Notes: generated by a model from the letters alone, not told the origin. Positions 45,455 through 49,073 are shown, counted from the stretch's first letter. The stretch: 64,000 nt of DNA from Flavobacteriales bacterium (GCA_016787985.1 JAEUTC010000043.1:17145-81144), one strand, 5' to 3'. Translations and numbers: made by a program.

Positions 45455-46079
45455 TTGGGGAGAGCGTATTCGCCGTTTGGACGTGGAGCGGTGAAAAGGT
45501 CACATACGTCGGATCGGAAGCCTGAAAGAAGGCTGAAGGACGCTGCTTATTGATGAGGATGCCGACCGGTGTGTACCCATGGTGCTACGACGCGAAGCCA
45601 CCTGGGAGAGGCGCTGGCTGATAAAGACACTCAAGCCACCTTGATTGACCCGACTAAAGTCAGTTCACAAAGCACGAGCTTGTTGTGCCTCTTGGCGCGA
45701 AAGTACAGCAGACCACTAAATCGCTGCTACCTTGCAATGAAACGCCATTTTGACATCACAATGCACTACCTACTCACAACTAAGTGGTATCCCAGAGCTC
45801 TAGGTTGCGCCATTATGTCATTTGACCAGCGCTCCAACAGCCTTCCTCTCTACAAGATACGACGTCCTACCCACACCTGAGTTATGAACGACTTGCTGTT
45901 CCATGACAATACCCACTCTTGAATCAAAGAATCCATCATTTGACTGATTATCTGACACTTATATCCTCCTCTACTGCCCACATACAACACAACCGGTCAA
46001 GTTAGTTATTAAGGGGTCCTCATTCTGACACGGTATTTGGATGTAACATTGTGCAGCACACCAGATTGTTGATAACATG

Positions 46080-46110
46080 TTGACAAGAAAACGCACAGAG
46101 GGTAGATTTG
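46080..46110 (+). promoter_or_regulatory. Candidate Bacteroidota sigma-A promoter for the islet operon (TTG-N20-TAGATTTG)
   Basis: TTG at 46080-46082 and TAGATTTG (TAnnTTTG consensus) at 46103-46110, about 55 nt upstream of the first ATG (46166). It is overlapped by the imperfect palindrome TTGATAACA|TGTTGACAA (46069-46086, 7 of 9 pairs). Confidence 0.35.
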
Positions 46111-46165
46111 GCAAATATTTGGAGGCGTCCAGCAGAAGGTCTTCGACTAATGAACTCTAAGGCCG

Positions 46166-46396
46166 ATGAATCCAATTGAACTAGCAGACCTCATTAGGCA
46201 GTACTCGACTAATGCCAAGGTCAATCGTGAGAACTACGAGGCTGAGTTGCTTCGCATTGTTCAGGACGAGAATCAATTCAACGAACGCGTAATCAACCTT
46301 CATCGCGAGCGTGAACGAATGGAGGAAGAAGCAGAAGCCAATCGCTCATTCGATCCTGAAGTACTTCGTGTTGTGATATCTTATAAGGCCCGTTGA
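46166..46396 (+). CDS. Islet gene A: 76-aa highly charged, predicted all-helical (coiled-coil-like) protein, unknown function
   Basis: MNPIELADLIRQYSTNAKVNRENYEAELLRIVQDENQFNERVINLHRERERMEEEAEANRSF... It has no Cys/His metal motif, no TM segment and no HTH pattern that I can recognise. It ends 21 nt before gene B. Confidence 0.6.
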   Translation: MNPIELADLIRQYSTNAKVNRENYEAELLRIVQDENQFNERVINLHRERERMEEEAEANRSFDPEVLRVVISYKAR

Positions 46397-46417
46397 GTTC
46401 TACGCTCAACGCTAATA

Positions 46418-48013
46418 ATGACATCAAGTTCTTCCTGGTCTCACTACATCTGCCCAGAAGCTCAGAGTCCAAGTGAGTGGATTCTTGAGACTCTAGTCAA
46501 AATTGCAAGGAAACGCTTTCCCAGCTATAAGTACAAGGACTTAAAGAGAGATGCCCATCTCGGTTACTTCGCGGACTACTTCTCAAGTCAATCTAGGTTC
46601 ATCGCGGCAACAATCATATGTGAGCACGAATATCACAGTGTGAGCTATGCGAGTGACTATTCGAGGTATTATAGTCAAGCGCATCGCAACATTGAGAAGA
46701 AAGTTGCTCGGATTCACTTCTTCTCAGAACGTCTTCCTCGTAAAACTATAATTGATTCGTTAGGTACAGCAAATTTTAAAACGTACGTCGCAGAGAATTA
46801 TCTTGGTCATATAACGCTGAAGCCCATTCTAAACTCACTTGTAGGAGCCTCTATAGTCAAGACATACCCACAAACGAAAGCCAGATTTTTTTCCGTTGTA
46901 CGGAACTATACCGTCAATCTCTTTGGAGAAGACATTAATTTAAAATCACTTGTATTCCAACAACAAGATGGCGCGGTAAGCGCATGTGCCACTGCTGCAC
47001 TATGGATGGCCTTCCACAAAACACATCTTGATTTCAGACATGCACTGCATACACCTCACGAAATCACATCACTAGCAGGCTATGGGGACGGTGTTGGTCG
47101 AAACTTTCCCAGCACAGGACTTGATGTAAACCAAATTATTTCCGCAATAGCTGCCCATGGCCTCGACCCTGAGTTGCGCACTCGAAACAAGTTTAAGACT
47201 ACATATCTGAAAGACGACCAACTCGTCACAGAGTCGGTGCTTGAACCCATTTTCCTAAAACGATTCGCATATTCATACCTATCAGCTCAAATACCAGTGC
47301 TACTTGGCTTCAACTATGGTACTGCGTATCACCTAGTCACACTAAACGGATACCGTTTTGTTGATGACGAGAAAGAAATTATGTCCTTGAATCATGTCAA
47401 AGACGACCATCCAATGATAGCTGATTATTTATGCCGACTTTATTGTCATGATGATCAAATTGGCCCTTTCGCTCGAATTGGTTTTCCTCAGTATTTTCCG
47501 AATGCAATTTCTTTCATGCAGGAAAGCAAAATAGCTTACCCCAGAGTTTTGATTGTGCCTTTGCAAACTAGTATAAGAGTGAATTATAATGACATTAGCG
47601 ATGTAGTGCGATGGACACATCTTCAATATAAAGTGCCGGGGCAGCCAACGCCATATATATGGGATATTAGACTCCTCCGCAGTAATGACTACAAAAGGAC
47701 AGCATGCCGCAATCGAGGAATTTTACCATCGATTCGAGAAAAAATCGTAACCGCCTCATTGCCTAAATATGTTTGGGTTGCCTCCCAATACGCTGCGACA
47801 GATTTGCAACACCCTCTAATGGACATGGTATTTGATTCAACTGGCACTCGTGGTGCCTTCTGTTGTGACATGATTCATTTCTATAGTCCTGCCCAAGCAA
47901 ATCTGGCTCGAAGAGTATTTGAACAGGTACTAGCAAGTAGTAAGGATGACTACCCCGACTTTTATGCAGACATGATCGTCGAGTCCGCAACGAAACACCT
48001 TGCAAACACATGA
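46418..48013 (+). CDS. Islet gene B: 531-aa protein with a central clan-CA (papain / C39_2 / phytochelatin-synthase-like) Cys-His core flanked by unknown N- and C-terminal domains
   Basis: FQQQDGAVSAC(190)ATAALWMAF follows the Q-x6-C-[AG]-x-[AT]-[AS]-L-x-M oxyanion-Gln/nucleophile-Cys pattern. AYH(305)LVTLNGY follows the GH.VV..GY His-strand pattern. LYCHD(345)D(346)QIGP is a candidate third residue. Codons were verified: TGT at 46985-46987 and CAC at 47330-47332. Confidence 0.85.
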   Translation: MTSSSSWSHYICPEAQSPSEWILETLVKIARKRFPSYKYKDLKRDAHLGYFADYFSSQSRFIAATIICEHEYHSVSYASDYSRYYSQAHRNIEKKVARIHFFSERLPRKTIIDSLGTANFKTYVAENYLGHITLKPILNSLVGASIVKTYPQTKARFFSVVRNYTVNLFGEDINLKSLVFQQQDGAVSACATAALWMAFHKTHLDFRHALHTPHEITSLAGYGDGVGRNFPSTGLDVNQIISAIAAHGLDPELRTRNKFKTTYLKDDQLVTESVLEPIFLKRFAYSYLSAQIPVLLGFNYGTAYHLVTLNGYRFVDDEKEIMSLNHVKDDHPMIADYLCRLYCHDDQIGPFARIGFPQYFPNAISFMQESKIAYPRVLIVPLQTSIRVNYNDISDVVRWTHLQYKVPGQPTPYIWDIRLLRSNDYKRTACRNRGILPSIREKIVTASLPKYVWVASQYAATDLQHPLMDMVFDSTGTRGAFCCDMIHFYSPAQANLARRVFEQVLASSKDDYPDFYADMIVESATKHLANT

Positions 48014-48732
48014 ACTACCTGGCAAAATATCAAGGAGCAACCAAATCATGGGTGCATGAGCCCGTATCAAATGAAAGACTAGTTGAAGACCTACCTGAGT
48101 TGCTGAGTAAGGTGAATAGAGACCTCGACTTTGTCTGTATGTTCAATGGTGGTGATTGGAGTGAGCTCAATTTAGTGCTTCAGAATCCAGAGTTTCAAAA
48201 GGAGCTGCATGAAATAAGCAAGAATAAAGTTCTCTTTGTTCATCTCGTTATGAAAGGCCGAAATGATACTGGAGAGCGATTCGGCGATTTGGCACAAATC
48301 GAATTCGGCGATGACAGTAGAGCCGAATTTTGGCGAGCCTTTCTGGCGAAGAATTTTAAAGATCGGGCAGGTTCTTACATAGAGGAAATGTCTGACCTTC
48401 TAAGCAGGCCGTCAATCGCAATTTTTCGATTGTTCCGTAACTTGGATTCTAACGAAGCTCAGAGTATTGAAGATGCATTTGTACAGCCATTAATGCCAGT
48501 TTCGCGGGCAGCATACGAGAGAGACCCACTTAAGGTAGACGACATTTATGAATCCACTCTGGAGTACTTCAAGCTCATTAATGATCAAATCATTAGTGAC
48601 CAGCAACATTGGCAGGACATGAAAAAAAGAGAAGATATGCGCACATGGCTGGAGCCCCTAATCAAGAACACCCCAAAGGGGGTAAGTCTCTCAAAAATAA
48701 TTGTAATGAGCGCTTCTCAGTTCTTTGGATAA
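48010..48732 (+). CDS. Islet gene C: 240-aa soluble protein of unknown function, translationally coupled to gene B
   Basis: ATGA start/stop overlap at 48010-48013. No TM segment, signal peptide, P-loop, nuclease or other catalytic motif recognised. Same low G+C as gene B. Confidence 0.8.
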   Translation: MNYLAKYQGATKSWVHEPVSNERLVEDLPELLSKVNRDLDFVCMFNGGDWSELNLVLQNPEFQKELHEISKNKVLFVHLVMKGRNDTGERFGDLAQIEFGDDSRAEFWRAFLAKNFKDRAGSYIEEMSDLLSRPSIAIFRLFRNLDSNEAQSIEDAFVQPLMPVSRAAYERDPLKVDDIYESTLEYFKLINDQIISDQQHWQDMKKREDMRTWLEPLIKNTPKGVSLSKIIVMSASQFFG

Positions 48733-48998
48733 ATGTGAGTACAGGCTTCCTCATTTCTTGGCTGTAAACTTCACAAAGGTTCGGCCAAGTGATAGCCGGG
48801 TGGCCGGAGGGTGCCCCGTTAATCCAAGTCTCATTCAAAAAGGGTACTCAAAACACCACTTTGGAAAGAAGAAAGGTTGTCAAAGAACAACTTTGGCTGA
48901 TTCAGGGTGGACAAGAGTAGAACCAATTGCTAGTTAACTCAATTTATGGCTGTGCGATGTACGTTAATGCATGATGCACACACTAAAAGTAATTCATG

Positions 48999-49073
48999 TG
49001 GGCAATGCCGGATTCGAACCAGCGACCCCTACCTTGTCGAGGTAGTGCTCTGAACCAGCTGAGCTAATTGCCC
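48999..49073 (-). tRNA. tRNA-Val (anticodon GAC), no encoded CCA; unusual C at canonical position 33
   Basis: Manual cloverleaf: GGGCAAT TA GCTC AGCTGGTTCA GAGC A CTACC TCGACAA GGTAG GGGTC GCTGG TTCGAAT CCGGC ATTGCCC A. All four stems pair, with one G-U in the T stem. The overall sequence resembles bacterial tRNA-Val. Confidence 0.85.

What the first reader, a model, noticed from the sequence alone, without database searches (positions are those of the whole stretch)
48010..48732. 240-aa partner protein translationally coupled (ATGA) to the peptidase-like gene, with no recognisable motif
Seen directly. The start codon of gene C overlaps the stop of gene B (ATGA at 48010-48013), which implies stoichiometric co-expression. 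The protein is soluble and mixed-charge, with an acidic-aromatic stretch (IEDAFVQPLMPVSRAAYERDPLKVDDIYESTLEYFKLI). It lacks any catalytic or nucleotide-binding signature that I can see. Inference: it could be the substrate, the effector activated by cleavage, or an inhibitor/immunity partner of protein B. I looked for gasdermin-like or membrane-disrupting features and found none.
Basis: partly seen in the sequence, partly recalled or inferred. Interest (0 to 1): 0.55.

Follow-up and report, generated by a model that had tools for sequence, protein, structure and literature searches.

The report
Fast-evolving third gene of peptidase cassette
The 240-residue protein is a real gene that always travels with, and is translationally coupled to, a cysteine peptidase gene, but only in one small branch of a much larger two-gene family; its function is unknown, and it looks like a non-enzymatic binding partner of the peptidase.

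Summary
Gene C (48010-48732, 240 aa) starts in an ATGA overlap with the stop of gene B and matches no Pfam, NCBIfam, PADLOC, PHROG or PDB entry.

C is not a true orphan. It is a highly diverged member of a small family of 221-259 aa proteins. Every member found lies directly after a B homologue (from a 23-nt overlap to a 14-nt gap).

- Profile-profile score of C against that family: 32.5, versus 13.3±2.7 for shuffles (z 7.2).
- The B genes that carry a C form one clade (30/30 bootstraps), about 12 of 143 non-identical loci.
- The other ~90% of the B family, in Bacteria and Archaea, has no C. Its near-universal partner is the small upstream protein A (45-100 aa, conserved C-terminal tail).

B is a three-domain papain/C39-like cysteine peptidase with Gln-Cys-His-Asp invariant in 143/143 sequences.

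C proteins are acidic and soluble, and no residue is conserved across the family, so C is probably not an enzyme. In the two closest locus pairs they change 1.3-1.4 times faster than B. B proteins of the C-bearing clade have their own β-hairpin insertion.

Best reading (inferred, about 0.4): C is a clade-specific accessory subunit that binds and regulates or directs B. It is unlikely to be the general substrate or effector of the family. The cassette is uncharacterised and sits in mobile and defence contexts.

The parts
48010..48732 (+). Gene C: 240 aa, acidic (pI 5.1), soluble. A diverged member of the 'third-gene' family found only after B in one clade.
   Evidence: ORF and ATGA overlap. No family match. 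hhalign against the family profile scores 32.5 versus shuffles 13.3±2.7, z 7.2, 0/60. Smith-Waterman z 6.9 against the L001 partner. pI and hydropathy.
48037..48495 (+). Residues 10-162 of C, the part that aligns collinearly with the family profile. Shared motifs are FxxxFN-loop, LxNxxF, a hydrophobic strand, (F/I)W helix, PxIxI(F/I) and IxD(A/G)(F/I)xxxL.
   Evidence: hhalign range 10-162 versus 14-173; alignment A2.
48466..48579 (+). Its first 9 residues (IEDAFVQPL) belong to the best-shared family motif. MPVSRAAYE is an insertion absent from the C2 and L011 rows of the alignment.
   Evidence: Alignment A2, columns about 160-200.
48010..48013 (+). ATGA start/stop overlap of C and B.
   Evidence: Overlaps of 4-23 nt or gaps of at most 14 nt occur in all related cassettes.
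46418..48013 (+). Gene B: 531 aa, a cytosolic three-domain protein with a central papain/C39-like cysteine peptidase domain. Catalytic candidates are Q183, C190, H305, H344, D345 and D346.
47183..47245 (+). β-hairpin of B (residues about 256-276). It is present in the C-bearing clade and missing in at least 75% of other B homologues. Candidate docking site for C (inference).
   Evidence: Clade-specific occupancy; strands 259-265 and 268-274 in the model.
46166..46396 (+). Gene A: 76 aa, predicted helical, ending in the family's conserved C-terminal tail (here DPEVLRVVISY + KAR). It is the near-universal partner of B.
   Evidence: A small co-directional ORF ends no more than 90 nt before B in 52 of the first 80 loci, and the same pattern holds in the later loci. 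Tail alignment.
45650..48990 (.). Low-GC islet (39-46% versus 56-62% in the flanks) that carries only A, B and C plus about 500 nt of non-coding leader. It abuts the 3' end of tRNA-Val.
   Evidence: Composition profile; ORF list; Rfam finds only the tRNA.
48998..49073 (-). tRNA-Val (GAC), at the right border of the islet.
   Evidence: ARAGORN; Rfam 64.6 bits.

Best explanation
Gene C encodes a non-enzymatic accessory subunit of a self-contained, horizontally mobile three-gene cassette. The cassette is A (small helical protein), B (cytosolic papain/C39-like cysteine peptidase) and C.

The core of the system is the A-B pair, which is widespread in Bacteria and Archaea. C was added once, in a single branch whose taxonomically assigned members are all Bacteroidota. 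Since then it has been inherited together with B while diverging faster than B, which is why it looks like an orphan.

Proposed mechanism (inferred, not shown): C is made together with B through translational coupling and binds B. The acidic C would pair with the mostly basic B, possibly at the β-hairpin that only this clade of B carries. Bound C would then hold B inactive or direct it until some signal arrives. This resembles the cognate inhibitors or immunity proteins that are co-transcribed with other bacterial papain-like peptidases, or a fast-evolving sensor/adaptor.

C is unlikely to be the general substrate or killing effector of the B family.
For: Shown:
- The ORF is real, and its relatives are under purifying selection: dN/dS 0.11 for the C pair L002/L168, versus 0.07 for B. 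dS is saturated, so this is rough.
- All 12 non-redundant positional homologues (221-259 aa) start between -23 and +14 nt of the stop of B.
- C is related to them: hhalign z 7.2 over 151 collinear columns, and Smith-Waterman z 6.9 to the partner of its nearest B relative.
- A profile search of 5.8 billion proteins found only six family members. The single new one again sits in an A(66)-B(596)-C(254) cassette.
- The C-bearing B genes are monophyletic, 30/30 NJ bootstraps.
- Other B homologues lack C but keep A.
- C diverges faster than B: where B is 47-61% identical, C is 29-38%; where B is 33-41%, C is undetectable by BLAST.
- No invariant or near-invariant column exists across the C family, which points to a non-catalytic protein.
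- 10 of 12 C proteins have pI 4.5-5.1, and 8 of 12 B proteins have pI 8.5-9.3. No transmembrane segment.
- B of this clade has a clade-specific hairpin, plus D76S and R144A replacements of otherwise conserved residues.
- B is an active-looking peptidase.

From the literature: co-transcribed cognate inhibitors are the norm for bacterial papain-like peptidases, namely staphopain/staphostatin, SpeB/Spi and Bacteroides Bfp/Bfi and Btp/Bti (PMC3462683).
Against: - No structure for C. The single-sequence AF2 model is unusable (pLDDT 39), and no complex could be predicted, so binding to B is not shown.
- A might already fill the inhibitor or antitoxin role, which would leave C with a different job.
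- Known cognate inhibitors of papain-like peptidases are described as small proteins and, from my own knowledge, are about 105-130 aa. They are unrelated in sequence to C.
- The homology of C to the family rests on weak similarity: hhalign P about 1e-3 to 1e-2 and 60 shuffles. The L002/L168 partners could not be linked statistically (z 0.7).
- The charge complementarity has exceptions (L001, L002, L008, L168).
Confidence: 0.4

Rival explanations
1. C is the substrate or effector of B. When triggered, B cleaves C and releases a toxic or signalling fragment, in the manner of protease-activated effectors such as bacterial gasdermins.
For: Tight coupling and strict co-inheritance with an active-looking cysteine peptidase. 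The cassette lies in mobile and defence neighbourhoods: type I restriction-modification next to L171, a conjugative element in L002/L168, an integrase in L084. The family shares a C-terminal tail D-[LF]-[LFV] that the peptidase might recognise.
Against: About 90% of the B family works without C. No conserved residue or Gly-Gly-type site occurs in the family. No hydrophobic or membrane-active segment and no gasdermin or PADLOC effector match. No conserved polar residues that would suggest a latent enzyme.
Confidence: 0.2
2. C is the sensor or specificity module. It is a fast-evolving bait or adaptor that recognises a phage or foreign-element protein and relays this to B, and A is the inhibitor.
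For: C diverges faster than B and has no catalytic signature. It is strongly acidic, with a net charge down to -21. The B family sits in defence and mobile contexts. A is retained in every C-bearing cassette whose upstream region is present, so C adds a function to A-B and does not replace A.
Against: There is no direct evidence that the cassette is an anti-phage system: no PADLOC match and no paper found. dN/dS of about 0.1 indicates purifying selection, not diversifying selection. The trigger is unknown.
Confidence: 0.2
3. C is a functionally unrelated passenger, or a clade-specific filler gene that merely shares the operon with A-B.
For: C has no detectable function, is absent from most of the family and has very low sequence conservation.
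Against: The overlap or abutment with the stop of B is kept across a clade in which B itself has diverged to 32-41% identity with the window's B and to 31-39% between the clade's sub-groups. C was never found apart from B. Size, acidity and C-terminal tail are conserved. Selection is purifying. B shows correlated clade-specific changes.
Confidence: 0.1

Closest known systems
Cognate inhibitors co-transcribed with bacterial papain-like peptidases (staphostatins with staphopains; Spi with SpeB; Bfi/Bti with Bacteroides C10 peptidases)
   Different: The paper describes those inhibitors as small proteins with staphostatin-like architecture, and from my own knowledge they are about 105-130 aa; they guard secreted zymogens. 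C is 240 aa, shows no sequence match to any Pfam family, and pairs with a cytosolic three-domain peptidase that also has a second small partner, A. Inhibition was not tested.
C39 double-glycine peptidase domains of bacteriocin ABC exporters (PCAT1, ComA, LahT)
   Different: B has no transporter domains and no Pfam Peptidase_C39 match. It has extra N- and C-terminal domains without structural matches. Neither A nor C carries a conserved Gly-Gly site.
Protease-plus-effector defence modules (bacterial gasdermin with its neighbouring protease)
   Same: A peptidase gene and a partner gene of unknown chemistry sit in one operon, in mobile or defence neighbourhoods.
   Different: C has no gasdermin or PADLOC match and no membrane-inserting segment. 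C is dispensable for most of the peptidase family.
Three-component toxin-antitoxin-type modules
   Same: A compact three-gene cassette with overlapping genes, inserted at varied sites. The small, fast-evolving partners flank a larger, better-conserved enzyme.
   Different: No antitoxin-type DNA-binding domain was detected in A or C. Toxicity and neutralisation were not tested. No known toxin-antitoxin family matched.

Membership tests
Third-gene (C) family of the A-B peptidase cassette (defined here) | Encoded co-directionally, starting within about 25 nt of the stop codon of a B homologue. | tested here: met
   ATGA overlap in the window. The same position holds in all 12 non-redundant loci of the clade.
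Third-gene (C) family of the A-B peptidase cassette (defined here) | Sequence similarity to the family profile beyond chance. | tested here: met
   hhalign score 32.5 versus shuffles 13.3±2.7 (z 7.2, 0/60) over 151 collinear columns. Smith-Waterman z 6.9 to L001. This is weak, twilight-zone similarity: BLAST and HMMER alone do not detect it.
Third-gene (C) family of the A-B peptidase cassette (defined here) | 221-259 aa, acidic, soluble, with a hydrophobic C-terminal tail. | tested here: met
   240 aa, pI 5.1, best Kyte-Doolittle window 0.72, tail ...SQFFG against the family's ...D[LF][LFV].
Third-gene (C) family of the A-B peptidase cassette (defined here) | The partner B belongs to the monophyletic C-bearing clade. 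| tested here: met
   NJ tree of 143 B sequences; the clade is recovered in 30/30 bootstraps.
Staphostatin / Spi / Bfi-type cognate inhibitors | Sequence or domain match to a known inhibitor family. | tested here: not met
   No Pfam or NCBIfam hit at E ≤ 1 for C or its relatives. No PDB sequence hit, including with the family profile.
Staphostatin / Spi / Bfi-type cognate inhibitors | Small protein (about 105-130 aa from my own knowledge; described only as 'small' with staphostatin-like architecture). | tested here: not met
   C is 240 aa. Its fold could not be determined (AF2 pLDDT 39).
Staphostatin / Spi / Bfi-type cognate inhibitors | Binds and inhibits its neighbouring peptidase. | not testable with these tools
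   Needs a complex prediction or biochemistry.
Gasdermin-like protease-activated effectors | Gasdermin domain or a membrane-inserting segment. | tested here: not met
   No Pfam or PADLOC match. No hydrophobic window above 1.3 in any family member.
Peptidase C39 (for partner B) | Papain-like fold with a Gln oxyanion residue and a Cys/His/Asp triad. | tested here: met
Peptidase C39 (for partner B) | Match to the Pfam or NCBIfam C39 sequence models; fusion to, or pairing with, an ABC exporter; a double-glycine substrate. | tested here: not met
   No Pfam or NCBIfam hit. No transporter domain in B. No conserved Gly-Gly in A or C. B is therefore C39-like in fold only. Neighbouring genes were not screened systematically for ABC exporters.

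The most novel reading that the evidence does not exclude
A-B-C is a previously undescribed three-component conflict system, either anti-phage/abortive-infection or addiction. A tail-bearing small protein (A) and a rapidly evolving acidic protein (C) jointly gate a cytosolic papain-like peptidase (B). C would act as the invader-sensing bait or as a proteolytically released effector. The two-gene A-B core would be a new defence family shared by Bacteria and Archaea.
Probability: 0.25. Interest if true: 0.7.

Novelty: new variant of a known kind. Interest (0 to 1): 0.45.

Why it matters
C alone is a modest finding, but it shows how an apparent orphan can be traced. It is a fast-diverging accessory protein, and it can only be recognised through the conserved neighbour it travels with.

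It also points to a larger unstudied object. The A-B cysteine-peptidase cassette turned up at 130 places in 185,579 species genomes and at 288 places on metagenome contigs. It occurs across many bacterial phyla and several archaeal lineages, is often next to integrases, restriction-modification genes or ubiquitin-like conjugation operons, and matches no Pfam, NCBIfam or PADLOC family. I found no paper describing it.

If the cassette proves to be a defence or addiction module, it would add a protease-based mechanism with two non-enzymatic regulators. The C-bearing branch would then be a natural experiment for what a third component contributes.

Tried and rejected
- Family libraries for A, B and C (Pfam, NCBIfam, PADLOC, PHROGs): only noise.
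- PDB sequence searches with C, the C-family profile and the B profile: nothing.
- AF2 of C from a single sequence: pLDDT 39, unusable, so no fold search was run on it. In hindsight, C should have been modelled with alignment A2.
- Foldseek against afdb50: the library was not available.
- att-type direct repeats around the islet: none beyond chance-size matches. There is no integrase in the islet.
- Rfam on the islet: only the tRNA.
- Promoter and terminator scan: counts were close to those from shuffled sequence. One promoter-like site lies at 46080-46108, upstream of A.
- An early BLAST match of C residues 49-94 to the C-terminus of the L002 partner is rejected as spurious, because it is not collinear with the other alignments.
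- The partners in L002/L168 could not be linked to the family statistically (z 0.7). I count them as family only by position, size, tail and B phylogeny.
- The downstream genes of L003 and L090 show no similarity to the C family, and their B genes lie outside the C-bearing clade. The downstream genes of L015, L018 and L046 cluster separately in all-against-all BLAST, and their B genes also lie outside the clade.
- tblastn of B against phage genomes: no match. Against plasmids: four matches.
- Literature searches for a described system: nothing relevant.

Full report
**1. Observation**

The window has a low-GC islet at about 45650-48990: 39-46% G+C against 56-62% in the flanks. It abuts the 3' end of tRNA-Val(GAC) at 48998-49073 on the minus strand.

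The islet carries three co-directional ORFs:
- A, 46166-46396, 76 aa.
- B, 46418-48013, 531 aa.
- C, 48010-48732, 240 aa.

An open stretch of 240 codons at this base composition has a chance of about 6e-7 (my arithmetic). Gene callers on four further contigs of the same organism call the same 76/531/240-aa trio. The GenBank record calls B only 457 aa. However, residues 11-50 of the 531-aa form fold with pLDDT above 90, and homologues align from about residue 20-45, so the long form is the better call.

**2. Is C an orphan?**

C matches nothing in Pfam, PADLOC, NCBIfam, PHROGs or the PDB. It finds only itself among 5.8 billion proteins and in an exhaustive phmmer scan of 1.84 billion cluster representatives. 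A single-sequence AF2 model is unusable, with pLDDT 39.

B, by contrast, has 76 homologues in the protein search. It is encoded at 130 places in 185,579 species genomes and at 288 places on metagenome contigs. So I used B to reach C.

In the loci nearest to the window's B, a gene of 221-259 aa always follows B:
- overlap of 4 nt: window, L001/L083, L169;
- overlap of 8 nt: L011, L084/L085, L086, L109, L171;
- overlap of 23 nt: L170;
- gap of 0, 4 or 14 nt: L008, L168, L002.

Six of these proteins form a clear family at 29-38% identity (L008, L084, L086, L109, L169, L170), and a seventh, L171, joins it at 29-49%. L011 joins it with HMMER E = 4.5e-4.

The window's C aligns to the profile of that family plus L011 over 151 collinear columns (residues 10-162 against 14-173). 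The hhalign score is 32.5, against 13.3±2.7 for 60 shuffles, so z is 7.2 and no shuffle reaches it. C also gives a Smith-Waterman z of 6.9 against the partner of its closest B relative, L001. The multiple alignment shows matching motifs in the same order and a shared 'MN' start.

A profile search of the 5.8-billion-protein set with this alignment returned only six proteins. The one new protein again lies in an A(66)-B(596)-C(254) cassette, next to a type I restriction system.

C is therefore a very diverged member of a tiny family. I did not find it anywhere without B.

**3. How far does the partnership extend?**

An NJ tree of 143 non-identical B sequences puts all C-bearing loci in one clade, recovered in 30/30 bootstraps. 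Its taxonomically assigned members are Bacteroidota: the window and L011 are Flavobacteriales, and L008 is Saprospiraceae. The rest are unassigned metagenome contigs.

The remaining ~90% of loci span many bacterial phyla and several archaeal lineages. Most have no comparable downstream gene, and the few that do carry unrelated ones.

What nearly all loci share is a small upstream ORF of 45-100 aa that ends 0-25 nt before B. It has a conserved C-terminal tail of roughly [VI]-[DS]-x-x-x-L-x-x-x-F-[ST]-[ILV]-COOH. The window's A fits this pattern (…DPEVLRVVISY-KAR).

So A-B is the core of the system. C is a later addition, acquired once.

**4. Properties that constrain function**

*C does not look like an enzyme.* No invariant or near-invariant column exists across the C family apart from the initiator Met. 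It also shows no fixed cleavage motif. Ten of 12 C proteins have pI 4.5-5.1, while 8 of 12 partner B proteins have pI 8.5-9.3. No member has a transmembrane-grade hydrophobic window. Most end in D-[LF]-[LFV].

*C diverges faster than B.* Where B pairs are 47-61% identical, C pairs are 29-38%. At 33-41% for B, C is invisible to BLAST. For the pair L002/L168, dN/dS is 0.11 for C, 0.07 for B and 0.17 for A. Synonymous sites are saturated, so these values show only that selection is purifying.

*B of the C-bearing clade differs from the rest.* It carries a β-hairpin (window residues about 256-276) that at least 75% of other B sequences lack. It also replaces the otherwise conserved D76 and R144 with S and A.

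**5. Context**

Neighbours of the C-bearing cassettes differ from locus to locus:
- housekeeping genes in the window, L001, L008 and L011;
- a tyrosine integrase in L084;
- a TraG/TrwB conjugative element in L002 and L168;
- type I restriction-modification in L171.

The cassette therefore moves as a unit.

Across the whole B family, the recurrent neighbour families are:
- tyrosine integrases (14 loci);
- a JAB-ThiF / Multiubiquitin-Prok-E2_E / DUF6527 operon (9-16 loci, depending on the gene);
- Eco57I-type methylases (the cluster of 6 loci whose tested member has this domain);
- type I HsdR;
- IrrE/M78 peptidases.

B also occurs on four plasmids and on five IMG/VR contigs, but not in sequenced phage genomes. 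This is the neighbourhood typical of defence or addiction modules. However, no PADLOC model matches, and I found no paper describing the cassette.

**6. Interpretation**

Most of the family functions without C, so C cannot be the family's general substrate or effector.

Several features fit a binding partner of B best: no catalytic signature, an acidic character opposite a basic enzyme, strict co-inheritance and coupling, faster divergence, and the correlated hairpin in B. C could be an inhibitor or immunity-like guard, or a sensor/adaptor. Co-transcribed cognate inhibitors are well documented for bacterial papain-like peptidases, including in Bacteroides (PMC3462683). C shares neither size nor sequence with them, so this is an analogy, not family membership.

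I put about 0.4 on 'regulatory binding subunit', 0.2 on 'cleaved substrate/effector', 0.2 on 'sensor/bait' and 0.1 on 'passenger'. The sensor reading overlaps with the first. Binding, inhibition and cleavage are all inferred; none is shown.

**7. Verdict**

C is a real, dedicated partner of a real peptidase, but it is a clade-specific accessory; A is the near-universal partner.

Novelty: an uncharacterised protein family inside an uncharacterised cassette, whose general logic (a peptidase plus non-enzymatic partners) is familiar. Interest is moderate at 0.45. It would rise if the A-B(-C) cassette is shown to be a defence system.

Noticed in passing
window 46166-46396 (gene A), and the small ORF upstream of B in the related loci fetched (52 of the first 80; the same pattern in the later loci): The near-universal partner of the peptidase is the small upstream protein (45-100 aa), not C. 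Its N-terminal part is variable. Its extreme C-terminus is conserved, roughly [VI]-[DS]-x-x-x-L-x-x-x-F-[ST]-[ILV]-COOH. In the window and in L001, 3-4 extra residues follow the motif. A free C-terminal tail next to a papain-like enzyme suggests product-like or pseudo-substrate binding; this was not tested.
   Followed up: partly
L007, L009, L010, L016, L047, L089, L060 and others (about 9-16 loci): In one branch of the B family, the A-B pair sits next to an operon for a JAB-ThiF (E1-like) fusion, a Multiubiquitin + Prok-E2_E protein and a DUF6527 protein (Pfam-verified). B also resembles the UfSP, ZUFSP and Josephin deconjugating peptidases in fold. A link between B and ubiquitin-like conjugation is therefore conceivable.
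   Followed up: partly
window 46418-46639: The GenBank record calls B 457 aa (JNN32_02285). The 531-aa form starting at 46418 is better supported: confident fold of residues 11-50, homologues aligning from residue about 20-45, and other gene callers giving 531 aa.
   Followed up: yes
window 45650-48990: The three genes lie in a 3.3-kb low-GC islet pressed against the 3' end of tRNA-Val. It has no integrase and no detectable att repeat, and about 500 nt of non-coding low-GC leader precede gene A. How the islet was inserted is unexplained.
   Followed up: partly
window 47183-47245 (B residues about 256-276), and B residues 76 and 144: B proteins of the C-bearing clade share a β-hairpin insertion that most of the family lacks. 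They have also lost an otherwise conserved Asp (D76S) and Arg (R144A). These are candidate contact sites for C.
   Followed up: partly
L038, L051, L054, L055, L064, L067, L070, L075, L078, L079, L081: B homologues with an upstream A-like ORF occur in archaeal MAGs (Methanobacteriota, Methanomassiliicoccus, Thermoplasmatales, Methanophagales, Methanoregula). The archaeal B proteins are shorter, about 430-460 aa.
   Followed up: no
L163-L167 (IMG/VR contigs): Five viral-collection contigs encode a B homologue with an upstream small ORF. No sequenced phage genome does. Whether these contigs are prophages or misclassified islands was not checked.
   Followed up: no
L015 and L069/L080, downstream of B: In some Hymenobacter loci the gene after B is unrelated to C. 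It is 271 aa in L015 and about 1,010-1,025 aa in L069/L080. The two share their N- and C-terminal ends at 84% and 66% identity, as if a large internal part had been deleted or inserted.
   Followed up: no
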